Shown: positions 1,378-46,251, counted from the first letter of the stretch. The stretch is 64,000 nucleotides of DNA from Styela clava (GCF_964204865.1 NC_135259.1:17670001-17734000); one strand, 5' to 3'. Notes: generated from the letters alone by a model not told the origin. Numbers and translations are program-made.

Positions 1378-2078
1378 TGTGGGATAAGTACGCGTAGGGT
1401 ACGGTACCTAATGTGTCCCACTGCGACTCAAAGATACAGGGTAACTGGAGACGCGTCCTGTCCCTTGGGTCCCCAAATAATGTCTTCAATCTATGCACCA
1501 ACTGACCAACACACACTGCAACCTTTACACCAACAATTCCGTAGACTTGTGTTGAAAGAAACTTTATTATCTTGTTTAAACACATCTAATGTCGACGTCA
1601 GTGATAACAGTGTTAGGGTTAGTGTCGGCGTTAGTGTTAGTGATAAATTGACTGTTTTTGACAAGGACTCAAAGAACAGCCATAAGTATGCTAGAATACA
1701 AATAAAAACAATAAGCGACATATACGATACAACAAAATACAGCAATCCTCACAACCTATCGGACAATATATGGATAAACATATTAATATCAATTCTAGAA
1801 TTCCTACCTGATAATCATTTAGTAATATAACCAGAAAAATAGTAAAACCTATAAACTATAAAATCTGCAGTCGTGCAGAATCCTCCCTAATAAGCAAAGC
1901 GCAACGAGCGTCTACCTCGTGGCAAGGAAAGTTCTAGAAGGCCGTAAAGCGCGGGGGAATAAGTGACTATTACGTCACAGTAAAGATGGGCAATGTAAAC
2001 TCATAAAGTGTGACTAACTTAAGGTGCTTACAGTGAAGGACTCAAGGTTCCATAAAATGCATGCAAACATTTCTTACA
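1378..2078 (-). repeat. BEL 3' LTR (701 bp)
   Basis: Differs from the 5' LTR by a 12-bp indel (AGTGTCGGCGTT near 1621) and about 4 substitutions seen by eye. Confidence 0.96.
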
Positions 2079-2382
2079 TACCGGCCCCGAAAATTATATG
2101 AAATGTTATATCGATAACAAGGAAAATGATTTTCAAAAACAAGAAAGGTTTGCTTGACTTCCAAAAACAATTGAAAGGATAAACACAGTAACAAACCAAT
2201 AAAGATAGCGAAATTGTCAATGCAAGACCCCAAAAAATAAAAAGGGTGGGTAAAACCAAAAAATTATCTCCCTCAAAAATAATTCAAAAATAGACACCTA
2301 ATATTCCCATAGTGAGAATGTATGCTATGTATGTGTAACTGTGGTGTGGTTGCTATTGCTATATATGTAGTGTGTAAATGTA

Positions 2383-5300
2383 TCAAACAGCTTCTAGTAG
2401 ACAAAGCTTCCTTATGTCACGCACATATGTTGAATTGGATGTGCGCACCTTCACTCGTCTGACAACCCCTTGATCATCGGGGTATGTTTCTTCTACAATT
2501 GCCTTGGGCCAACATCCTCTTGGTGAATTGTCATCGTACACCAGCACAAGATCTCCAACTTGAAAGTTGCGTTGAATATTGAGCCACTTCTGTCGGCACT
2601 GTAATTGGGGAAGATATTCTTTTGTCCAACGCTGCCAAAATAAATCGAGTAATCGTTGAACATGTCTGTATCCTCTTCTATATTCATCCGTTCGAAAGAA
2701 CACATCAGGTGGTAAAGACGGTTCTAATCTGTTTATCAAAATTGAATTGGGAGAAAGGGCATTCAAGTCCTTCGGATCATCACTCAGTGGTGTGAGTGGT
2801 CTATCGTTGAGAATTTCCTCCACTCCTGTAAGAAGAGACCATAATGAGTAGTCATTGAGAGACTGGCCATCCAAAAGAGCTCGGAGAATTCTTTTCACCT
2901 CTCGTACCATTCTTTCCACCACTCCATTTTGGTGACTAGAAAGAGGAGGCGAAAAATGCCATTGTATACCCTTTTGAGATAGAGATGTGTCAATCAGTTT
3001 GGAATTCCATTTGTTGATACCATCTGCAATAGCTTTGCTTCCAGCCACCAAGTTGGATCCATTGTCTGAATATACATGAGCAGGTTTCCCACGTCTAGAT
3101 GTAAACCTGAAGAAAGCTTGCAGGAATGCTGAAGTATCCAAAGATTCCACAACTTCGATATGAATGGCCCTTGTAGCCATGCATGAAAATATACAGCCAT
3201 ATCGTTTATGTTCGCTTCGCCCCAATTTGACTTTCACAGGGCCAAACAGATCAACTGCAGTGTAGAAAAATGGTGGGTTACCTGCAGTAACACGAGAAAA
3301 TGGTAGATCTGCCATCCACTGCTCTCCTACTTTTGCAGAACGTCTGTTGCAAGCAACACAGTCACGAACAACCTTGGCAACAGCAGATTGTCCCTTCAAA
3401 ATCCAATATTTGCCACGAACAGAGGAAAGTGTGTGTAATGTACCAGAATGTCCAGTCATTTCATGATGTTTGGTAATAATCAGTTTTGTCACATGATGGT
3501 ATGGTGGAAGAATAATCGGATGCTTCTGATCAACTGGTAAACCGGAGTTTCGAAGTCGTCCACCTACACGCAGGATTCCATCTTGTACAAAAGGGTTGCA
3601 TTTGAGAAGTGTTTTCGAAAATTGTGTTTTGAGATTCTTTTAGTTCTGTATATTGGATGGTGCCTCGTCTGCACCTGTATTATCTTTGAAATATTTGAGC
3701 TCCTCTGAGAGGGATGATTGTTGTACTAGTTTCATAATTTCTTTGGTGGCGTAATCTAATTCCTCCACAGATAAAAATCCCAAAGTTGGTGAATTGTCAG
3801 AATGTGAGAATTTCCAAGTTGCATATGTACGAAATCGTAGTAGCCATGCAACAGCTCTACGTAGCTTTTCGAATGATGAGTAACGCAATAACAGTTCATG
3901 TAATGGAGAAGAATCTGTGAGATCTTTCATAGGTTCAGTATAATGAACTTTCATCTCCGAAGCAAGTTGTGGGTCGCATGGGACTTCATGAATCCCATCA
4001 TCAACCACGATCCATGCATCTTCACTTCCCCATATAAATTGTGGGCCTTTGAACCAAATACCAGCCTTGTTTAGTTTATCTGGCATTAGACCACGAGAAG
4101 CAATGTCGGCTGGATTCAGCTTAGATTCGACATGGTGCCATTGATGTGGTTTTGACAAGAGATGAATTGTGTTTATTCTGTTGGCCACAAATGTCTTGAA
4201 GCGTTCAGAACGATTATTGATCATCTGGATAACTGACATGGAATCTGACCAATATATAACACCGTCAACTGTATGGTCCAGTTCTTGTAAAATTGAATTG
4301 GCAAGCTCAGCAGCCACAACTGCAGCGATGAGTTCCAATCGTGGAATAGTCAGTGGCTGCTTAGGAGTTACTCTAGCGACTCCCCTGACAAAGGAACAAT
4401 GAACTTCAACTTTGTCGCCAGTAAGTCGTAAGTAAGCTGATGCTCCATAGCCAGATGTGCTGCCATCACAAAAACAATGTAATTGGATATTGTTGCTTTT
4501 GAACTCTTGTGGTTTGTAACATCGAGGGTTCGCCAGGCCATTCAATGCATGTAATTTATCGATTCATTTTTCCCAACGGTCCTTTAGTAAACCAGTAATG
4601 GGGTCATCCCATGAGTATCCTTCAATACAAAGATCCTGCAGAATTCGCTTGGCAGGTAAGATGAATGGTTGAACAAAACCCAAAGGATCAAAGATTTGAC
4701 TCACCATTGAAAGAATGCTATTTCGAGTGAGCGCCTTTGGTTCAATGTTGACGTATACTACAGATTCATCAGTGTGCATGTTCCATTGTACACCTAGGGT
4801 GCGACTGAGTGAATTACTTTCAAGATTGAGGTCTTTGATTGCAGGAGCACGATCACTTTCTGGAACTGATTGCAGAACATTGATATCATTGCTCATAAAT
4901 TTGGTGAGGTGAAATCCTCCAGTTGCCAATAATTCAGTGAGCTGTTTGATTAGTCTTACAGCATCTGATGGATCATCGACAGATTTCAGTCCATCATCGA
5001 CATAAAAATTGCGCATAACTGTGCGTACTGTCATTTCATCTGCATTCGACAGATTGTCTGCGGCTACTTTGTGTAGCGCAAATGTGTCAACAGAAGGTGA
5101 TGAAGTGTTCCCAAAGTTGTGGGACAACATTTTAAAGTCAATAGGAACACTATCCAAATTATGGTCCTTCCACCATAGGAACCGCTGAGCATCTGTGTCC
5201 TCAGGTGAAACTTTAATTCTGTGGAACATTTCTTTTATGTCACAAACAAATGCAGTCAATTCTTGCCTGAATCGAATGAGCACTCCTGTTAGCATGTTGT

Positions 5301-8300
5301 TCTTGTCAGGACCAGAAAGCAAATTTTTATTCAATGAAGTTCCTTTACACTCAGCAGAACTGTCAAAAACAACTCTAAATTTAGATTGGTGTGTGGCATG
5401 ATGTGGAATGTACTATGTTTTATTTGTGGGTGTGAGTGCATGTGATGGGATTACTTCGGCGTAACCATTCTGAATATAACCCTCAATTTTATCTCTATAT
5501 TTCTGAAATAATTCAGGGTCCCCCATGAATTTACGTTTCAAATACACTAGTCGCTTCTCAGCGATATTACGGTTATAGGGAAGGCTAACAGTGTCTGACT
5601 TCCATGGAAGTCCAATTTGAAACCGACCATCAACCTTGGTCACAGTTTGGTTCATAAAATCAAGTGCCCTTCTATCATCTTGGAATGGCTGAGTAATACA
5701 TGGGTTAGCATTAACATCAGCAAAATCATGAGCACACATATGACAAATAGGTTCATTAAAACTAGAAAAATCAGTAAAATTACAATCAATTGGGTGTATA
5801 GTATTCAAATAATTGACCTCTGCATTGGTCTCTGCAATGCTTACATCTGGGCCAGTAAGGGCCCAACCTAGGATAGTGTGTAATGCAGTGGGGGATCCAG
5901 CTGCACCCACCCGGGTTTCGGTAATTGGGTAACGACCCAGGACATCAGCCCCAATAAGCAAATCGATCGGTTTATCCAATAGGGGAAAATCTAGGTCCCG
6001 TAGGTGAGGATAACGCTGTGTGGCCTCAGTGTTTGGTATCGAATCTCGTACATCAGGTATCGAGTCAAATGTCAAGGCATGGTGAACATCAACGGTCTGG
6101 GGTTCATGGACACCCCTGATAGTAAATGAAACTTTCATGCCATCATGAAGTTTTGGACCAGTGACAGTCCGTATTGTACATCTCTCTGGCTCTCCATTGA
6201 GAGCTAAATCCCTAGCTAATTTAGTGGAACACAAGGATCTAGTTGCCCCATAATCTAGGAAGGCATATGTCAATGACTTATGGTTCGAATCACAAACTTT
6301 CACCTCAACAGGGACAACCATGAGCCTAACAAAACAATCAGTATCACAAAAGTTGACAACATTGGCAAAATAAGAACTTACATTTGTTGAATTGACCTTA
6401 CTATTAGTGTCCGTGGGTATATTTCCGGTCACAGGTGATCGTGGCCTGGTTGGCATTTCATTCTGATGAAGTAGTGTGTGGTGCTTCCGTGTACACCCAT
6501 CAGCTTGGCAACGTTTCTGAGACGGACATTCCTTGACGATGTGTCCGGATCTCATGCAGTTGAAGCATAAATTGTTCTCTCGAATGAAATCACGACGATG
6601 TTGCAGGTCATATTGTTTGAATGTTGCGCAACGATATAAAGGGTGATCGTTCTTGCAACATAAACATAAAGTTTGTGGGTGCTTTTGGCTAGCACCATGG
6701 GCTTGTTGTCTTCCATTGTAATGTGTTGGTTTGTAAGCAGGTGATGAATTCCTCTTCTGTTATGTTGAAGAACTGATTGTAGAATAGGCAGACATTTTCC
6801 CAAAGCGAGATTTAAAATTTTGTACTGCCCTGGGCTTGTTGTCATTTTCTGCCATTAAACGTCCATAAAAATTATTACTGAGATGGGCTCTCAGTTCAAC
6901 AAATTCCAATAAATGAGTGAATGAAGGAATCGGATGATTCTTCCAAGAAGTGTCATGTACATAATCTGCTTGTAATGTTGGTGGTAAACGACGAAATATA
7001 TCTTTGAGATAAGCTTGTGCATCCAGCATTTGTTCAGCTTTCCACTGTGTCAGAATAATAAAACAGTTTCTCATCTGAGACGCAAGTCGACACAGTGCTT
7101 TAGTATCATTGGCTCTTATCCTAGGTCCTTCTGTCAGTTGGCGGATGTGAGCGTCAATGACTAGTGTACGATTTCCAAATCGATACAGTAAGGTGTCTCG
7201 TGCTGCTTGATATCCTTCGCTTGGAGAATCGACAATTACAAGATGCTTAATAGCATCCTTGGCCTCACCAGAGCACATCTGTATAAGTTGAGCTAATTTC
7301 ACCGCAGGTTCATAGGCGTGATGACCAATGATGTTGTCAAATCCACGCATGAATGCATGATAGCTTTTTGGGTCACCATCAAATGTTATGGGGTCAAGTT
7401 TAGGCAGTGTGAAGCCTTGTTTCATGGTGTTTGCCAAAACATACAAATCATCTCTGCTGGGATAATTATGATCCAATTGTTGAGATGGATATTCCGGGAG
7501 TACTGAAGTGTGAGGATCAGGTCTTGAAATTACTGGTGGTAGTGCAGTATTAGGAGGAAGATAGGATCTTGAAGGCGGTGGCATCCAACAGTCATCTCTG
7601 GCCATTGATGACATAATGGGTCGGGTAGGAAAGGTACGAAGGGGCTCAGGATAAGTCACAGGGCAAAAAATTTGTGGGTAGGTAAAAGTTGGTTCACAAA
7701 TAGCAGGATACGAAAATGATGTGCCTATAGATGCCGGCCCTATTGGGGGATATGCAGGTAACGTATTATCATGGTAACTTGATGAGACGGTGGGATATGA
7801 CAAATTCCTTCTTGCAGTTTGGTGAGATAACGCCGGCGTCACAGCAGGCAAATTTTGCAATGGTGCAATATTATAGTGGATAGCTGAAGATACAACTGGT
7901 AAGGTGCCAATGTTAATTCCAATTCTATGAAGCTGTTGGCTCCTACTGATAACAGAAGTCGAATTACACAACGTAAGCTCCGTAATACTAGCAGAAGGCA
8001 TTGTAATAGCCATACCTGTAGAAGTGTCAATTGCTGAGCTGAGAATGTCAGTTATTCCACCTCCTGTTGAAACTTGAACAGAAGGTTGCATGACGTTACA
8101 AGAATATTCCGGAACATAATTTCGCAAATTCAACGCTGGGGGTGGTTCAAACAGTGTTTCGTCAAGAGCTTGTACTTCAATCAATGAACTTCTTGACGAT
8201 TTTGTGCTACTGGATTGTGATAGAATTTTGGCACGTTGCTGCTTATAATACGCTTTATTGATTTTAAGTTGCAGCTGGGCTTCTTCTAATTCTTCAGCTG

Positions 8301-8763
8301 CCTCAAGCTCCAGTAATCTAGCTTTTGTGGAAGAAGTGGTGCTACTAGTCTTTGAGTGCGAATGTTTAGATTTTTTTGTGCTAGCTTGGGACTCATCACT
8401 AGCAAGGCATTCTTGTTGATAATGTCGATATTTCATATTACATGAATTTTTCATATCATTTAGCCGAGTTAAATACTGTGAAGCGTTTTGAATATTCATG
8501 ACATCAGATTCTGTTGTTGCTGAATGCAAAGTAATGTAATTGTTCAAATATTCCTCCCAAGTAGCCACTGCACTATCCAGTCTATCTTTTGCAGCAACTA
8601 CATTTTTTCGATTATTTGGAATATTCATCAGTCTATCAAGACTGGTAAGTAATGTAGTGATGTTCCGATCATGAACGAGTCGAATTGATTCCAGTGTCTG
8701 GATTTCCAATGCTGTGCTGGTGTGAGACACAGCAGATTGAAGAATTTCATCATTTAAAGCCAT
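2383..8763 (-). pseudogene. BEL/Pao gag-pol polyprotein in a single frame with four in-frame stops
   Basis: ORFs 6760-8763, 5413-6555, 4564-5334, 3640-4545 and 2383-3492 share one frame. Motifs: DUF1759-like FDGDPKSY; three knuckles (CLCCKNDHPLYRC, CFNCMRSGHIVKEC, CQADGCTRKHHTLLH); protease AFLDYGAT; RT YVDD; RNase H HCFCDGS/TIPRLEL; integrase HHCC, DLFGP and SDNGSN. Confidence 0.95.
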
Positions 8764-8780
8764 CAGTCAATTTATTTCGA

Positions 8781-9469
8781 TGTGGGATAAGTACGCGTAG
8801 GGTACGGTACCTAATGTGTCCCACTGCGACTCAAAGATACAGGGTAACTGGAGACGCGTCCTGTCCCTTGGGTCCCCAAATAATGTCTTCAATCTATGCA
8901 CCAACTGACCAACACACACTGCAACCTTTACACCAACAATTCCGTAGACTTGTGTTGAAAGAAACTTTATTATCTTGTTTAAACACATCTAATGTTGACG
9001 TCAGTGATAACAGTGTTAGGGTTAGTGTTAGTGATAAATTGACTGTTTTTGACAAGGACTCAAAGAACAGCCATAAGTATGCTAGAATACAAATAAAAAC
9101 AATAAGCGACATATACGATACAACAAAATACAGCAATCCTCACAACCTATCGGACAATATATGGATAAACATATTAATATCAATTCTAGAATTCCTACCT
9201 GATAATCATTTAGTAATATAACCAGAAAAATAGTAAAACCTATAAACTATAAAATCTGCAGTCGTGCAGAATCCTCCCTAATAAGCTAAGCGCAACAAGC
9301 GTCTATCTCGTGGCAAGGAAAGTTCTAGAAGGCCGTAAAGCGCGGGGGAATAAGTGACTATTACGTCACAGTAAAGATGGGCAATGTAAACTCATAAAGT
9401 GTGACTAACTTAAGGTGCTTACAGTGAAGGACTCAAGGTTCCATAAAATGCATGCAAACATTTCTTACA
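8781..9469 (-). repeat. BEL 5' LTR (689 bp)
   Basis: Direct repeat of 1378-2078 with termini TGTGGG...CTTACA. Confidence 0.96.
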
Positions 9470-14405: not shown

Positions 14406-17177
14406 TTAGTTGTAACTTATCGGTAGATATAGTTGCGACGGCCTTATCGCCATTTCGGTCTGGACGATTTTCCATCCGTTGCAAGCATCCCATGAGACAC
14501 GGTCTGGACCATCTTCGTCAACGACGTCATCTTCCGGCAATGGGAACATTGTAACTCCATATAACTTTCCATTCAAGTTGAAATCAGTGCAGCGATTAAA
14601 CCACCAGCCACCGCCGTAAGATTTTGCGCAATTTCCATCTCTCCACCGGTCGTTGTCACTATCACGTGCCGTGAACTCCATGTCATTGTGCATGGCAGCA
14701 AAATCAACACTTGCTTGATCAGGAGTTGGAGTTATCCTCAGTTTGAAATTTTCCTTTTCGTCACCGATGGAAAATTGGCTGTAAATAAAGGTAATCAAAA
14801 TGTTAAAAGATTATATCAAAATATTTTAACCATAAAATAATTATGAACTGATTATACAATAACTGTACGTATAGCGTCATTGAAAGCCGTTGCAATTTTT
14901 CTAAGTCTGTGACAGAGGTAAATACCGAAAGAACAGTATGCTTCGTTTAAACTGGATTTAAAAAGAGGAAATGAATAAAATTAGCAGTAATCAATAATTT
15001 GAGACCCATGGGACTTAGGTAATACCTCTAGAACAGGGTTGGGAAACTACTTTTCTGCATGGGTCAGTTACAGATAATAGACTTCATTACTGGGTCGGAG
15101 GCTCAGAACTCAATACGAAACTATGAATACAACACTGAATGAAACACTTCGGAGGGTCGGATTCGGCCCACGGGCCGTAACTTGTCCACCCCTGATCTAG
15201 ATTGACAATTGAATTGAGTGAACAGATGTTTTTTCGGTACTCCCGAAGTATGTGAACCAAGATGGCGGACACCGCAACATAGTATGTGTACCAGGTTAGG
15301 GTTAGGCCATAATTTTATTCCAATTTTCCATTACGAGCTCGAGGACTAGTAAAGTGACTACCGTAGTATTTTATACCTCTAATTATGGCCTAACCCTAAC
15401 CTGGTACACATACTACATTTCGGTGTCCGACATCTTGGTTCACATACTTCGGGAGTACCGAAAAGACATAGATTAAGTCGATGTTTAATTAAAAATTGAA
15501 CCACCAAATATCAGCGTTAACTTACTCAAAATAAGTCGTGAATTTTCGTCCATCCGCTAATTTTACAGTGATTCTCAGTTCATGTGGAACAGTACCGGTG
15601 AAATGACGAATTGCTTTCAAACCTAGAAGCAAGATGATAACTTAATTGCATTAAAGTTGATTTATTGTTTTATACCAGTGGTTCCCAATCTTTTTTCTTC
15701 CGTGGCCCATTTTAATTGCACGAAAATTCTGTGACCCATTCACACTTTTTCATGCAAGGGGAATACTACAAGGCAAGCAAAAAACTGTGTCCGCAAAAAT
15801 GAACACTTTAGAATGAAAATTACCGCTCAGTAACATAAAACAGTATTATCGTTCATTGCCACCACAATCAGAATTTGTATTTGAATATAGTGAATCGAAT
15901 TTTCCAACAACTCTTGCAATTTTAAATAGGTTTATGGCGCACCTGGAAGTTTTGCTGTGGGTCATGGCTCACTGGTTGAGAACCGGGGTTTTATTCAGAA
16001 AAATTATAAATTATTGAACAGAACAATTTATAAAATGGATCCTTACCCATCCAATAGTCTCCCGTTGGCATCCCAAATCCACTGATGTAACTTCTCAAAT
16101 CTCTGTCGAACGATTCCATGTCGAGGTATCGGCGCTGGATAATCTGATGGATAATAAATAAATCATATATATATCGTGAAAATTCTGAAGAGTAAAGCAC
16201 ATGGAAGGAAAATACAAACGAAGAAAAAGAGAGGGGGGTTGAAAATCTCTACGAAGTATGACATACCATCCATCCGCCTTCACTTTCTCTACCGCTGCAG
16301 TCACAATAAAGCCATGTTCCTTTTGAATATGCTACACTCGGCTTCTTGTAGTCAAAAAATGCCGTTCTGCCTCGTGTTGCCATTCCAATTGGGTCGTTAT
16401 TAGCATTAGTCGTCTTTGAACAAACGTCCATGCAATCAAGAGGAGCGACTAAAGTTACATATTTATAATAAATTAGCAAAAATCATAAATGTGCACTTTA
16501 TGCCACGACCACTGGCTTTTATGTAGCAAATGGTGTAAAAAAAGCTTGTAGTGTATCTTGGTTCATATCAATATTTTAACATTATTTTAATTCACCACAC
16601 CTGATTTTTTGCATTTTCCTCCTCGGTTGTGTAGAAATGCCATGGAAACACTGCCGTCAGGATTAACTCTGGATTGTGGTGTTACACATCTCAAATCTTT
16701 TTCACAATCTCCCTCCATATTGAAGTCGCCACCGCATGTTTCACCTTTTTGCTTGGCACATCTATTACAGCAGCTGAACAAAATCAAAATATAAGTTTAT
16801 GATTTAAAGAAACACGTACTTTGATGGAGTTTAATGCAATGTTGTTCAAAAAAATTGTTTACAATAGCAAATGTTTTTTTTTTGTCCAAAAAATATATTC
16901 GATTGGGCCAGTTTATATCGCAGGATTCAAATTCTAAAAAACACTCATTATTTCCATAGAAGTATAGAGATGCTGTGTAAATGCGTCAGGAATACACTCA
17001 CGGACAAAGTCCTGGTGCTTCGGATCCGGGGCAGTTTAGTTTTGGACATTCTCTTTTAACTTTAACTTCTATCCCTTCAGGATTGATCATAAGTTCTTCA
17101 CAGGGAAAACAAGTCAGCGTGTTTGCTGAGTGAAAGAAAGTCAAACCAAGCAATATAGTCACTCCGATAAGGTTCAT
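14406..17177 (-). CDS. Secreted IGFBP-N-domain plus fibrinogen C-terminal (FReD) protein, copy A; intact, 365 aa, 6 coding exons
   Basis: Exons: 17177-17002, 16773-16601, 16448-16267, 16143-16047, 15622-15526, 14778-14406. All introns are GT-AG with consistent phases, total 1098 nt. Signal peptide MNLIGVTILLGLTFFHSANT. 12-Cys IGFBP pattern (CFPC...GLCPCCNRCAKQKGETCGG...C...LRC...GKC). FReD motifs: PLDC, YCD, GGWMIIQRR, GFG, DYWMG, HNDMEFTARDSDND, NCA..YGGGWWFNRC..NLNG, EMAIRP. Confidence 0.92.
15033..15194. mobile_element. hAT-Charlie-type MITE in intron 5 of copy A
   Basis: CAGGGTTGG...CCACCCCTG termini flanked by CTCTAGAA and ATCTAGAT, matching the NTCTAGAN target consensus. Confidence 0.75.
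15236..15459. mobile_element. Palindromic MITE, probably Merlin-like; relatives at 18816-19029, 22587-22696, 29681-29891 and 46022-46251
   Basis: Near-perfect TIRs of about 90 bp (GGTACTCCCGAAGTATGTGAACCAAGATG...). Absent from the equivalent intron of copy B. Confidence 0.8.
15676..15988. mobile_element. hAT-type MITE in intron 4 of copy A; a related truncated copy starts at 25121 in intron 5 of copy B
   Basis: CAGTGGTTCCCAA...GGTTGAGAACC termini. Intron 4 is 424 nt in copy A but 99 nt in copy B. Confidence 0.72.
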
Positions 17178-20250: not shown

Positions 20251-21228
20251 CAGGGTGTTAAAAAATGAACGCCAAATTAACAGAAGTTAAGATGAAATAC
20301 TAATTAGAACATATACCGACTGATACCTTTTTAACTGAATTGAAATACGATGAAATGCCATTCAAACATTTCACGACAGACGCTTTTCAACAGTAACTTT
20401 TTAAACGTTACCATGACGAAAAATTTTACCTTAATTTTGCGTAACTTTTTTTAACAACCTGTGTAATATTGTGGGTGATTGGCAGATATGGTACAAAACG
20501 TCGGATTGCCATTCCGGTCTGCACGATTCTTTACTTTTTAAAACAAGAATCCCATGTGACACAGTCTGGGCCAATTTCATCGTTCATGATCTTTTCCGAT
20601 AGTCGGTAAGTCTCGAATTCCGTATAGCATTATATTCAAGTTGTACTCAAAGTGTGATGTTTTCATGTGACGAACAGAGTTTAGTCTTTTTTAGGTTATT
20701 TATTATAAGTGAGTGCGTGACCTTGCTTTGAGTAGCATTCCAAATACATACCATACATACTTTACCAAATACATATTCGGACTGTAGAGAGGTTTGTGAA
20801 AGTAAGATGAAAGCTCTATTGAATAGATCGCCTTCATTGGAGGGGTAACATACTTGTAAGGCAGAACGATTGAACGATAAGATTGAATATGAACTGAACG
20901 CGTAGAATACAGAATATATATGTATGTGTTCAAGCAAAAAGCAATATCTATTTCTGCCTATTTTAAAAAGCTTTATATGTGCGATGCACTCTTATTCATA
21001 CGGGAGATGAGATTAGCTACAAATGCGCCTACTTAAAAATATACAGGGTGTCCATGAAATCTTGACATTTTGCAAAATCGATACCATAAATCGCTTTGGC
21101 CCTCACAGATGTATTCAATGGAGTAAAAATACTTAAACAATTACTGATTAAAATACAACAAACCTGAATAAAATATATTGGGAACTGACTGCATAACAAA
21201 ATTGTGAAGGGACTTTTTGGACACTCTG
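20251..21228. mobile_element. Two Tc1/mariner-like MITEs (20251-20461 and 21044-21228) in the intergenic spacer
   Basis: Inverted termini CAGGGTGTTAAAAAA...TTTTTTAACAACCTG and TA-CAGGGTGTCCA...TGGACACTCTG. Confidence 0.6.
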
Positions 21229-23624
21229 TTAATATGAAACGAAAGACGATAAATGAGTGAAAATTTAGTTCTCAGTGAGCTGAGCCGTGATGTTTTTATT
21301 GACTGCATTTTAACTCATTTTTTTCACTTTAATACTTTATTATGAAGTTTAATGATTATCAAATAAAAAATATTATGAACAAAAAAAAAATTAACAAAAA
21401 CTGTTTTACGACTGTTAATCATCCCCGATTAAAGAATGAAATTAATTATTGTTTTTTAAGTCAACAATTTGATATTTTCAATAAAAAATTGTGACGCAAA
21501 CTTTTTATTATGAATATTACTTCGTCATAACTGCCGGTTCCAAATAATATACAGTTTCAAAATATTTTAAAATACGCCTAATAAGGGACTAATATTGATG
21601 ACTATACGACGTAGTTTGGGAGAAATGAATTGTACGTAACAATGACGTAAACTGTTGAAAAACAATATCTGCATTATCTTCGTTAAAAAGTATTCATATT
21701 TTATAGTATTTTCATTGAATTGATTAAAATCTGGAAGAATAAATTGCTAAGTGTTGAATGCGTTTTTTAAAAGTAATAAATGCCGACTATCAGATATATC
21801 ATAAATAGACTATAATTAAAAGCCACATAGGCATTCTAGCATATGCATGAATCTCTCATTAATTCTAAATTGTCGAAATGGTAATACGATTTCGAATTCA
21901 TGTTGAAATTTAGTTTTTGATGCTTTAATTATCTTTTAATTTTTGATGCAATCGAGTGACAGGCGGAAGGTAATCCTGACATGATTTCAATCACGTATAC
22001 GAATACGAAAGTTGCTTTCCTTGCGTTGTTTTTTAATTAAGTCAAAATCTTCACTTATTAGAGTACAGAGCCAACTAGCGCAGTCATTCCTATCACGTAC
22101 ATATTTTCGTAGTCGTCATATTTTTCGTAGTTTTATTTTATTTTTTCGGCATCTACCGGGAGTCGGTATAAACGGAAGACACGTAGTAAATTATTGATAG
22201 CCTTGACTACTTGCTGTTAACCTTCCCTAATTTGTATGACGTAGCTCAAGGGTAGAAAAGATTATTCATGATTCACTCAATAATAGAAACGATTTTTCAG
22301 AAGAAAACTTTCAAACTGAAGATTTAAATTTCACTTCGTCATAACTGCCGGTTCCAAATAATGAACAAATTTGAAAAATATTCTCAATGACGTCTAAGGG
22401 ACGGATATGGGAGAAATGAATTGTACGTACGATTGCACTTAAACAGTTGCAAATCAATATCTGCATTATCTTCGTTAAAAATTATCCATATTTTATAGCA
22501 CAACTTTATTATATTCATTGAATTGATTGAAATATGAAAAAAACAAGCTGTTAATTAGCTGAGAAATGTGTTAAATACGTTTTTTTGGTACTCTTGAAGT
22601 ATGCGCACCAAGATGTCGCATAACCTGAAACCTCTCCTGGTACACAACCTGAGTTCAGGTTGTGCGCTATCTTGGTGCGCATACTTCTGGAGGTCCCGTT
22701 TGTTAATAATACCAAATGCGGACTATGTGCTATATCATAAATAGACTGAATTAAAAACTATATAGGCATTTTAGCATACAATGATTAAAAGCTATATAGG
22801 CATTCTAGCATACAATTATATATAATTAAAAGTCGCATAGGCATCTTCGAAGCAATCGACTTACAGACGAAGGGTTAATCTTGACATGATTTTAATCACG
22901 TATACGGAGTGTGCTTCAATTTTGTTAAAAATAGACGGGTGTTTTACTTATTTAAAGATAGGATTAAAAGCCATGGTTTTAATCACGACATCGAATACAA
23001 AAGTTGTTTCCCTGTGATATTTGTCAAGTTAAATTGGACTGGTGTCTTACCTATTTAGATACAGAGTCAATTAGCGCAGTTATTCCTATCACGTACACAA
23101 TGCTTCCAGTTTCAAAGATAAAAAGATTATTTTTGATTCACTTATTATTAGAAACTTTTTTTCTCAAAACTTTCCAACTGGAGATATAAATTTTAATAAA
23201 GTTTATTTTTAAACGATCGACTATTTTCATTTTAGTTCAACAAAGCAAACATGTCTTGCGGCTAATAAATATTTTGCAATAATTGAGTACGAAGGGCAAG
23301 TTGATGAGAGAAATGAAGACACACTTTTTGTATAAATGAACAAGATTAAACTGCTTCAATCACAGTTGCAACATCGCACTAACACTGTGGTTACTAAACT
23401 TATGCTGTTCTTGTATAAAGTTGTTGGTATAACAAAAAGTTGAGTTATAGGTTATGGCTACAACCAATTGCACACGCAAGGATAGATATGATGAATTACG
23501 GGCGTAACAAGGGTTGTTAGAAACAATTGGAAAAAAATTATAGAATATTATTGCCTAGCCCGCCCCGCCATATGTTTTAAGTAACTGATAATTAATTTTT
23601 TAACAGTTTGAAAATACATACATC

Positions 23625-25761
23625 ATGAACATTATCGGAGTGACTATATTGCTTGGTTTGACTTTGTTTCACTCAGCAAACACGCTGCGTTGTCTTCCCT
23701 GTTATCAACTTGTGCTCGATCCTGAGGGAAAAGAAGTTAAAGTTAAAAGAGAATGTCCAAAACTAAACTGCCCCGGAACCGAAGCACCAGACGTTTGTCA
23801 GTAAGTGCATTCCTGACGCATTTATACTACACCTCTACTCTTAAAGGAATAATAAACTTTTTCTTGCGATATAAACAAGGACAAGCGAAAATATTTTTTG
23901 AACAAAAACCGATTTGCTATTGTAAACAGTTTTTATTTTATTTTCATTACATTAGACTTCAGCAAAGTATGTGTTGTCCTAAATTTCAAGCTTTTTTTTG
24001 TTCGATTTTGTTCAGCTGTTGTAATAGATGTGCTAAACAAAAAGATGAAACATGCGGTGGTGACTTCAATATGAATGGAGATTGTGAAAAAGATTTGAGA
24101 TGTGTAACACTACAAACCAGGTACAATCCCGACGGCAGTTTTTTCCTAGCACCTCCAAACAACCGAGGAGGAAAATGCAAAGATTCAGGTTAGATGACAT
24201 AAAATAACGAAATGAACCAAGATACACTACAATTTTTTTTTCACCATTTGCTATATAAAAGTTAGTGGTCGTCGCAAATAATGCACCTTTATGCTTGTTG
24301 CTTATTTATATAAAATTGTAATTTTAGCTGCTCCTCTTGATTGCATGGAAGTTTGTTCAAAGACGACTAATGCCAATAACGACCCAATTGGAATGGCAAC
24401 ACGAGGTAGAACGGCATTTTTTGACTACAAAAAGCCGAGTGAATCCTATTCACAGGGAACGTGGTTTTATTGTGATTGCAGCGATGGAGAAAGTGGAGAT
24501 GGATGATGGATGGTATGTCATACTTCATACAGTTTTTCGACCCTTTCCCGTTTCCTTGTTTGTATTTTTCCTATTATTTGCTTTCTTTTTCACACTTTTC
24601 ACGAGATTCGATTTATTTTTTATCCATCAGGTTATCCAGCGCCATCATCTAGACATGCAAGCATTCGACAGAGATTTGAGAAGTTACATCAATGGATTTG
24701 GGATGCCAACGGCAGACTATTGGATGGGTAAGGATACATTTTATCAATTATGTTATTAATTTATAATACTTCTGTATAGAACAATAAATCAACTTTGATG
24801 CAATTAAATCACCATCTTGCTTTTAGGTTTGAAAGCAATTCGCCATTTCACCAGTACTGTTCCACATGAACTGAGAATCACTATAAAATTAGTGGATGGA
24901 CGACAATTCACGACTTATTTTGAGTAAGTTAACGCTTAATATATAATTTTTCAAAAATAATTGAACATTGAAGTAATTTATGACTTTTTGTGGAAAAAAC
25001 ATCTTTTTATTCAATTCAATTGTCTATCTAAATTCTAGATGTAAAGTCTAATTCACTCTCATTGGTGTCAAATTATTATTTCCTTCTATTTCTAATCATT
25101 CGCTCCCGCTAAATCTAGATCAGGGGTTCTCAACCTTTTTCCTTATGTGGCTCCCTTTCGTTGCACAAAATTTTCATGATTCATTGACTTTTTATGCAAG
25201 CACTACAAAAAAAGCAAACAAATATGCTCGCAAAAATGGACACTTTTATTTCACTAATAAAAATATAATAACCCCTCAGTTGCCACTAAACAATATATTG
25301 TATATCAATTTGGATGAGCATGTATTATTATACAATCAGTTTAGGGATAAGGTATCTTGACGCAATCGTTCAATGTTTTATTTAAATTTATTTACAGCCA
25401 ATTCACCATTGGTGACGAAAAGGAAAACTTCAAACTGAGGGTAACTCCAACTACTGATCAAACAAGTGTTGATTTTGCTGCCATGCACAATGGCATGGAG
25501 TTCACAGCGCGTGATAGTGACAACGACCGCTGGAGGGATGGAAATTGTGCAAAATCGTACGGCGGTGGTTGGTGGTTCAATCGCTGCACTGATTTCAACT
25601 TGAATGGAAAACTCTATGGAATACCAATGTTCATAAAGGACGTCGGTGACGAGGATGGTCCAGACCGTATCACATGGGATGCTTGCAAAGGAAGGAAAAT
25701 CATCCAGACCGAAATGGCGATAAGGCCGTCTCTACGATATCCACCAATCTTATACAACTAA
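23625..25761 (+). pseudogene. IGFBP-N plus FReD gene, copy B; in-frame TGA at 24504-24506 (pseudogene or truncated product)
   Basis: Exons 23625-23800, 24016-24188, 24328-24512, 24631-24727, 24827-24923 and 25398-25761 mirror copy A with all splice sites intact. Exon 3 is 3 nt longer: GGA TGA TGG ATG versus GGA TGG ATG in copy A. Confidence 0.88.
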
Positions 25762-46021: not shown

Positions 46022-46251
46022 GGGGCTCCCGAAGTATGCGAACCAAGATGGCGGACATCGGAATGTAATATGTGTACTAGGTTAAGGTCAGGCCATAATT
46101 TTAGGTATAAATACTACGGGAGGCTCTTGGCTAGTCTTCGAACTGATAATAGGACTAAAATTAGGAAAATTGGAAAAAAATTATGGCCTAACCTGTTACC
46201 CATGTTACGTTCCGATGTCCGCCATCTTGGTTCACATACTTCGGGAGCACC
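46022..46251. mobile_element. Merlin-like palindromic MITE
   Basis: Long TIRs with GG...CC ends. Perfect 8-bp TSD CTACGCTA at 46014-46021 and 46252-46259. Confidence 0.82.

What the first reader, a model, noticed from the sequence alone, without database searches (positions are those of the whole stretch)
16601..17177. Paralogue divergence concentrates as amino-acid changes in two IGFBP-domain loops
Seen: the mature N-terminus is TCFPCEELMINPEGI in A and RCLPCYQLVLDPEGK in B (8 replaced codons, 2 silent). The last inter-Cys loop is PQSRVNPDGSVSMAFLHN in A and LQTRYNPDGSFFLAPPNN in B. The signal peptide, all cysteines and most of the FReD core are nearly invariant. Inference: diversifying selection on a recognition surface, like a variable domain of an immune, allorecognition or gamete-recognition protein.
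Basis: partly seen in the sequence, partly recalled or inferred. Interest (0 to 1): 0.7.

Follow-up and report, generated by a model that had tools for sequence, protein, structure and literature searches.

The report
Retuned loops in sea-squirt gene cluster
Two neighbouring copies of a sea-squirt gene for a predicted secreted protein differ most in two short loops of its front domain; in the few animals sampled these differences are fixed between copies, not variable between individuals, and they likely come from one old burst of selection that would have retuned what one copy binds.

Summary
In detail: copies A (17177-14406, minus strand) and B (23625-25761, plus strand) are six-exon genes for a signal peptide, an IGFBP-fold domain and a fibrinogen-C domain. 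They differ at 17 of 32 loop codons against 49 of 330 elsewhere. They belong to an eight-copy tandem cluster (four A, four B); NCBI labels identical proteins Styela clava. A narrower signal remains on the B stem: loop dN/dS 2.6-4, 17 replacement to 2 silent fixed changes, P between 0 and 0.13 after correcting for window choice. It fades when Cys-bounded loops are used. The loops hardly vary between gene versions or RNA samples, and no PKD1-like partner was found on the contig, so allorecognition or Themis-type roles are unlikely. Best reading: episodic retuning after duplication (0.5) against relaxed hairpins (0.33).

The parts
17002..17177 (-). Copy A (A3) exon 1: signal peptide (1-21) and first half of the IGFBP-fold domain
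   Evidence: join 17002/16773 seen in RNA contigs of 4 of 4 runs; spliced product equals P0004
17070..17114 (-). Copy A segment 1 (codons 22-36), start of mature protein and first strand and turn of a predicted beta-hairpin insertion
16601..16773 (-). Copy A exon 2: second half of the IGFBP-fold domain
   Evidence: (IGFBP E 9e-4)
16629..16679 (-). Copy A segment 2 (codons 91-107), loop between the last two cysteines
14406..16448 (-). Copy A exons 3-6 (16448-16267, 16143-16047, 15622-15526, 14778-14406): fibrinogen C-terminal domain, open frame, 365 aa in all
   Evidence: PF00147 E 3e-35
23625..23800 (+). Copy B (B3) exon 1; segment 1 at 23688-23732
   Evidence: (join 23800/24016, GT..AG, in 3 of 4 runs)
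24016..24188 (+). Copy B exon 2; segment 2 at 24110-24160
24504..24506 (+). In-frame TGA near the end of B exon 3, from a 3-base insertion relative to the other copies; truncates B at 175 aa in this haplotype
   Evidence: P0011 is the 175-aa product; RNA contigs of 4 of 4 runs show the form without it
24328..25761 (+). Copy B exons 3-6 (24328-24512, 24631-24727, 24827-24923, 25398-25761): fibrinogen C-terminal domain

Best explanation
A and B are head-to-head duplicates of a predicted secreted IGFBP-fold plus fibrinogen-C protein, and the loop differences were fixed once on the B lineage, likely by a short episode of positive selection that would have changed what the front domain binds, after which the new loops were kept. 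Shown: gene structure, splicing, eight-copy cluster, fold of the front domain, placement of about 12 of the 17 replacements on or next to the B stem, purifying selection on the loops on other branches, and constancy of each loop type across copies and samples. Inferred: that selection rather than relaxed constraint drove the burst (borderline statistics), and that the segments form a binding surface (by position they correspond to the N-terminal 'thumb' and the last inter-Cys loop that line the ligand cleft of vertebrate IGFBPs; B gains aromatic residues and loses acidic ones there). Also inferred: that the protein is an innate-immune or mucosal recognition molecule whose fibrinogen domain works as a lectin-like or oligomerising module (about even odds; no ligand or tissue data). 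B has since been lost by four separate lesions in this haplotype, as in birth-and-death gene families.
For: Fixed A/B differences: loops 17 replacement to 2 silent, whole exons 1-2 23:3, FReD 25:15 (Fisher 0.037 and 0.025). Region-by-branch codon model: loop dN/dS 3.97 on the B stem (p 0.002 against 1), 0.55 elsewhere (below 1, p 0.003), rest of gene 0.56 on the B stem; 3.4 (p 0.013) when double-base changes are allowed. Branch-site test on the B stem p 0.0105, not on A2+A3 (p 1.0) or A1+A4 (p 0.21). Simulations that re-pick the two best windows reach the observed statistic in 0, 0.7, 4.3 and 2.5% of 600 runs under four nulls. Intron and upstream branch length for the same edge 0.11 per site predicts 8 changes, 17 seen (P 0.004, uncorrected). 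Segment 1 is identical in B1-B4 though B4 flanks differ by about 10-15%, and the open 362-aa B protein P0014 differs from B2 at 1 of 32 loop codons. Fold: SIBD-1 Z 8.5, rmsd 2.3, 73 aligned; IGFBP-4 Z 7.1. Counting from the last cysteine, A residues 103 and 106 match IGFBP-4 Leu69 and Leu72, named as cleft residues in PMC3356058 (passages).
Against: No positive-selection class in site models. With a free synonymous rate in the loops p is 0.057. Against the full-fit statistic 9.3 the corrected P is 0.02-0.13. Dropping the two double-base codons 27 and 95 lowers the statistic to 5.9, under every 95% null threshold (7.8-14.0). Loops defined by cysteines instead of by the data give dN/dS 1.9, p 0.23; the whole N-domain gives 2dL 0.9. 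Local 17:2 is not different from the site ratio (p 0.13). The five top branch-site codons are all double-base codons and only 2 of 5 lie in the loops, the known false-positive pattern (10.1101/165969, listing and start of abstract); four branch tests were run. Introns 1-2 suggest a locally longer edge (0.13-0.14; P 0.02-0.04). The loops vary in length and sequence across the whole family. The codon models are my own code, with 8 sequences and likely gene conversion. Solvent exposure was not computed.
Confidence: 0.5

Rival explanations
1. Relaxed constraint: both segments are insertion-tolerant surface hairpins of a disulfide-locked domain; after duplication B drifted there at dN/dS near 1, and chance, a few multi-base mutations and the choice of the two best windows make it look higher.
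For: Loop lengths and sequences vary across 13 paralogous exons and 77 homologues while cysteines stay; segment 2 has pLDDT about 70; about a third of all sites fit dN/dS 1; Cys-bounded loops p 0.23; 17 or more replacements in two best windows arise in 14-29% of 110 runs under clustered neutral nulls.
Against: The loops are below 1 on all other branches and unchanged among B1-B4 and P0014; window-corrected P mostly under 0.05.
Confidence: 0.33
2. B's exons 1-2 were copied in by gene conversion from an older, more divergent paralogue or allele, so the local branch is simply longer than the gene-wide one.
For: Trees differ between gene parts and B's N-domain is closer to the C18 copy (dS 0.56) than its FReD is (1.03); introns 1-2 give a slightly longer edge; B1-B3 are homogenised over exon 1 to intron 2 (4-5 differences in 800 bases against about 2.6% in flanks); this null gave the weakest rejection (4-12%).
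Against: Only 3 silent fixed differences in exons 1-2 against 23 replacements; a longer branch should raise both; introns are at most 1.3 times longer, and at that length the statistic is still 9.8.
Confidence: 0.08
3. Ongoing diversifying or balancing selection at a self/non-self or gamete-recognition locus.
For: Secreted fibrinogen-domain protein in an ascidian, like v-Themis (PMC8849226, passages); a distant paralogue on C18 lies about 2.5 kb from the likely 5' end of a PKD1-like gene.
Against: 0 differences in the two segments in 3 of 3 version pairs (A1, A4, C18) and 1 in B; 39 of 40 listed RNA variants are known paralogue differences (18 rows not shown); site models negative; no REJ (0 of 9 matches) or PKD-channel (0 of 7) match on C13; the C18 neighbour is head-to-head, not nested.
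Confidence: 0.05
4. Neutral decay of a dead copy B.
For: All 4 of 4 B copies in this haplotype are broken.
Against: The lesions differ between copies and postdate the shared loops; FReD dN/dS A3/B3 is 0.36; an open 362-aa B protein is on record and spliced B transcripts without the stop are in 4 of 4 runs laid.
Confidence: 0.03

Closest known systems
Single IGF-binding-domain proteins (SIBD-1, PDB 3ZXB/3ZXC), IGFBP7 and HtrA1 N-domains (PF00219)
   Same: 12-cysteine pattern and fold; stand-alone relatives of the same domain in this genome are named SIBD-like by NCBI.
   Different: Fused to a fibrinogen-C domain; a 10-12-residue hairpin insertion between Cys2 and Cys3; no GCGCC motif; glycine at the place of IGFBP-4 Val48; Pfam score under the cut-off (23-27 against 28 bits).
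Invertebrate fibrinogen-related proteins (ficolins, tachylectin-5, snail FREPs, angiopoietin-like FReDs; PF00147)
   Same: C-terminal FReD, secreted by prediction, tandem expansion with gains and losses; at least 150 FReD exon matches in this genome.
   Different: Front module is an IGFBP-fold domain, not collagen, coiled coil or immunoglobulin (the FREP layout is recalled, from no call); of the 150 best front-domain hits only 2 carry a FReD and both are labelled S. clava.
Ciona v-Themis-A/B/B2 self-sterility ligands
   Same: Ascidian secreted fibrinogen-like proteins (PMC8849226, PMC7018956; passages).
   Different: v-Themis is polymorphic along its whole length and sits in the first intron of a PKD1-like s-Themis gene; here variation is between paralogues and no such host gene was found on C13.
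Ascidian VCBPs (variable-region chitin-binding proteins)
   Same: Two-module secreted recognition design with a front binding domain (PMC5465252, passages); a model for how it may work.
   Different: No immunoglobulin or chitin-binding domain; no homology shown.

Membership tests
IGFBP N-domain fold (PF00219 / SIBD) | 12 cysteines in IGFBP spacing and the IGFBP fold | tested here: met
   SIBD-1 E 4e-4; Z 8.5, rmsd 2.3, 73 aligned
IGFBP N-domain fold (PF00219 / SIBD) | Pfam gathering score 28 bits | tested here: inconclusive
   23.2 (P0004) and 26.5 (P0014) bits, E 1e-4 and 1e-5; the distant paralogue P0019 passes with 32.1
Canonical IGFBP-1 to -6 | GCGCC motif, Val48-type cleft residue, structured IGFBP C-domain | tested here: not met
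   motif and Val position differ and the C-terminal part is a FReD (features from PMC3356058)
Canonical IGFBP-1 to -6 | Binds insulin-like peptides | not testable with these tools
   no binding data; no complex job was run
Fibrinogen-related domain proteins (PF00147) | Fibrinogen C-terminal globular domain over cut-off | tested here: met
   122.7 and 128.5 bits against 22; 68 PDB sequences matched
Ficolins | Collagen-like stalk before the FReD (recalled; also seen in the Atlas ficolin cluster) | tested here: not met
   no collagen family; the front part is the IGFBP-fold domain
Ficolins | Acetyl-group binding site and calcium-dependent sugar binding | not tested
   full-length model failed (pLDDT 33); site residues not aligned to a ficolin in any call
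v-Themis self-sterility ligands | [quoted passage not shown] | tested here: not met
   0 of 9 REJ and 0 of 7 PKD-channel matches lie on C13 (only best candidates scored)
v-Themis self-sterility ligands | High allelic polymorphism along the protein | tested here: not met
   2-5 differences in 363-365 aa between versions, none in the two segments; RNA variants are paralogue differences; small sample
v-Themis self-sterility ligands | Ovary expression, vitelline-coat location | not testable with these tools
   runs carry no tissue label

The most novel reading that the evidence does not exclude
A lineage-specific family of secreted ascidian recognition proteins in which an IGFBP-fold domain has been turned into a tunable binding head on a fibrinogen lectin module; duplicates acquire distinct specificities by selected changes around the ancestral IGF cleft, and one specificity class (B) now segregates as a null haplotype, being open in some animals and broken in all four copies in others.
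Probability: 0.25. Interest if true: 0.7.

Novelty: new variant of a known kind. Interest (0 to 1): 0.4.

Why it matters
Both domains are well known, but this pairing was not found outside proteins labelled S. clava nor in print in the searches made. If the B burst is adaptive, it points to the IGFBP fold serving as an evolvable binding head in invertebrate chordates and names about a dozen residues that can be tested by loop swaps. It is not a new allorecognition system, and accelerated loops after duplication are a common pattern, which limits the surprise.

Tried and rejected
Full-length fold from 8 close sequences failed (pLDDT 33) and was not used. Site models M2a and M8 found nothing. 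Themis-type nesting was checked and rejected for C13; the PKD1-like gene on C18 is beside, not around, a distant paralogue. Recoding of TGA was considered and dropped: the stops replace different residues in different copies and other samples have the open form. No run is on record as RNA; the runs laid are called transcripts only because their contigs join exons at the predicted introns, and depth was not used to rank genes; tissue is unknown. The Atlas gave only FReD clusters, scores under 0.9; it gave no result for the front domain alone. Paper searches: 'fibrinogen+IGFBP+ascidian' 3 irrelevant papers, 'Styela clava+fibrinogen' 15 listings, none on this gene by title or abstract start, 'fibrinogen-related+IGFBP domain+invertebrate' 0, four-term tunicate search 0, SIBD search listings only; subscription journals and supplements were not seen. 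Earlier findings of the scan: 0 in 3 look-ups. B4 was left out of the codon models (frameshifted), so they use 8 of 9 close copies. Only the best 150 of 530 front-domain hits could be checked for a FReD. No complex prediction was run: no candidate ligand was in hand.

Full report
What is there. The window holds an inverted duplication with two six-exon genes head to head: A on the minus strand (17177-14406, 365 aa, open) and B on the plus strand (23625-25761). Each codes for a predicted signal peptide, a 95-residue domain with 12 cysteines and a fibrinogen C-terminal domain (PF00147 123-129 bits; PF00219 23-27 bits, under its cut-off of 28). NCBI labels the identical proteins Styela clava. Contigs of public runs join the exons at the predicted introns for both types, so both are transcribed in some samples; tissue is not known.

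The observation. Corrected for picking windows the clustering is modest (two best windows P 0.024-0.113 over four widths; not significant for the pair A1/B1), but the same segments are also enriched in A against the C18 copy, which does not involve B (p 0.005 and 0.0007). The FReD is less constant than stated (40 of 246 codons), and B has an in-frame TGA at 24504-24506.

The family. A search of the genome gave 22 matches to exon 2. Eight six-exon copies lie at C13:17.60-17.81 Mb and one at C18:10.61 Mb. The four A-type copies and the C18 copy are open; all four B-type copies are broken, each differently: B1 a stop at codon 42 and loss of Cys88, B2 a stop at codon 176, B3 (window) a 3-base insertion giving a stop at the same place, B4 several lesions. 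B is not a long-dead gene: a 362-aa open B protein is on record (P0014), and contigs of 4 of 4 runs laid show the exon 3 end without the stop (3 as joints, 1 as a loose end). More distant relatives are two further IGFBP-FReD genes on C18, stand-alone front-domain genes on C13 and front-domain genes followed by vWA-like exons on C4 (the vWA label is my reading of the sequence, from no family scan). Among the best 150 of 530 profile hits in 1.84 billion representatives only 2 carry a FReD, both labelled S. clava.

With 8 of the 9 close copies (B4 left out; stops masked) my own codon models found no class above 1: M1a/M2a 2dL 0.0, M7/M8 p 0.64, M8a/M8 p 0.47; about a third of sites fit dN/dS 1. 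Pairwise loop dN/dS is 1.26 for A3/B3, 0.23-0.39 among A copies and 0.51-0.81 against C18. So there is no family-wide diversifying selection. Nor is there allelic hypervariability: two NCBI versions of the same gene models (inferred to come from different animals) differ at 2-5 of 363-365 residues, none in the two segments, in 3 of 3 pairs, and open B differs from B2 at 1 of 32 loop codons. Of 40 listed RNA variants over A exons 1-2, 39 are known paralogue differences and one sits beside an alignment gap in a B-type codon; 18 rows were not shown. The sample is small (7 runs laid, two protein versions).

What remains. The excess sits on the B stem. Fixed differences between all A and all B copies are 17 replacement to 2 silent in the loops, 23:3 in exons 1-2 and 25:15 in the FReD (Fisher 0.037, 0.025). 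A region-by-branch model gives loop dN/dS 3.97 on the B stem (p 0.002), 0.55 on other branches (below 1, p 0.003) and 0.56 for the rest of the gene on the B stem; freeing the loops' synonymous rate gives 2.61, p 0.057. The branch-site test is positive on the B stem only (p 0.0105; four tests run). Simulations that re-pick the best two windows put the observed statistic at 0, 0.7, 4.3 and 2.5% of 600 runs under four nulls, or 2-13% against the more conservative full-fit value (pilot). Allowing double-base changes keeps dN/dS 3.4 (p 0.013 nominal). Against it: the five top branch-site codons are all double-base codons, 2 of 5 in the loops, a known source of false positives (10.1101/165969, seen as listing and start of abstract); without codons 27 and 95 the statistic falls below all null thresholds; cysteine-bounded loops give 1.9, p 0.23; introns 1-2 suggest an edge up to 1.3 times longer than the gene-wide one; trees differ along the gene, so conversion is likely. 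The evidence is suggestive, not decisive.

Structure and mechanism. A model of the B front domain from 77 sequences is confident over residues 21-90 (block pLDDT 92-97) and less so over 91-110 (about 70); segment 1 includes a beta-hairpin (strands 27-31, 37-41). It matches spider SIBD-1 best (Foldseek E 4e-4; Z 8.5, rmsd 2.3, 73 aligned), then IGFBP-4 and IGFBP7. Both loops are the length-variable parts of the family, which by itself predicts tolerance. But in IGFBP-4 the ligand cleft is lined by Val48, Leu69 and Leu72 and closed by the N-terminal 'thumb' (PMC3356058, passages); counting from the last cysteine in the alignment, residues 103 and 106 here match Leu69 and Leu72, and residue 22 lies in the thumb position. 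B changes T22R, E27Y, E28Q, V95Y, V101F, S102F, L106P and H107N: segment 1 goes from net charge -2 or -3 to 0 and the domain from 2-3 to 5 aromatics. That fits a change of binding partner (inference). Val48 is glycine here, so IGF binding itself is not expected (inference). I could not read model coordinates, so surface exposure and the closeness of the two segments are untested.

Comparison. It is not a canonical IGFBP, not a ficolin and not v-Themis: v-Themis is polymorphic throughout and nested in a PKD1-like gene (PMC8849226, PMC7018956; passages), whereas none of 9 REJ and 7 PKD-channel matches lies on C13. It most likely works like other two-module secreted recognition proteins of ascidians (VCBPs, ficolins; PMC5465252, passages), in a family that gains and loses copies; that role is inferred from architecture alone.

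Verdict. Observation confirmed; interpretation partly supported. Episodic selection on the B lineage 0.5, relaxed hairpins 0.33, conversion from an older donor 0.08, ongoing allorecognition-type diversification 0.05, decay 0.03. The domain pairing looks undescribed in the searches made; the evolutionary pattern is a familiar one. Interest 0.4.

Noticed in passing
window 24498-24512; G000:C13:17660630-17660643; G000:C13:17800360-17800375: Three of four B copies are damaged at the same short repeat at the end of exon 3 (B2 point stop, B3 3-base insertion, B4 deletion into intron 3); B2 and B3 would give the same 175-aa product, essentially a free front domain like the stand-alone genes. Mutation hot spot or repeated loss of the FReD; the B4 lesion is also in an older protein version (P0015).
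   Followed up: partly
G000:C18:10420781-10462650 (L063-L066, L058) and 10465000-10474100: A PKD1-like gene (FN3, PAN, REJ, PKD-channel matches) appears to start about 2.5 kb from, and head to head with, a distant IGFBP-FReD paralogue; a loose echo of the s-Themis/v-Themis linkage but not nested; the 5' exon is my guess from a signal-like ORF.
   Followed up: partly
G000:C13:7.52-7.65 Mb (L010-L015, L020-L022); G000:C4:19.54-19.57 Mb (L016, L018): The same front domain occurs as duplicated stand-alone 106-120 aa genes and in front of vWA-like exons; a small shuffled module family.
   Followed up: partly
window 23600-24400: B1, B2 and B3 differ at only 4-5 of 800 bases over exon 1 to intron 2 against about 2.6% in the flanks, suggesting recent gene conversion of the front-domain part.
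   Followed up: partly
window 16267-16370 (codons 145-179): Among A copies the main variable patch is not in the front domain but at the start of the FReD (8 of 15 codons at 145-159, scan P 0.009 for A3/A1).
   Followed up: no
window 1378-9311: LTR retrotransposon of Pao/BEL type with 98-100% identical terminal repeats and ORFs interrupted by stops.
   Followed up: no
G000:C13:17737000-17769300 (L031-L034): About 32 kb array of a 306-base tandem repeat splits the gene cluster just beyond the window.
   Followed up: no
window 20505-20581 (G000:C13:17690505-17690581); also C13:17644948, 17803987, 17816376-17818871: Exon-6 fragments of further degraded copies lie between the A and B genes and beyond A4.
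   Followed up: no
window 15213-15482: A 270-base element with about 100-base inverted ends sits in intron 5 of copy A, with relatives at 46022-46251; looks like a MITE.
   Followed up: no
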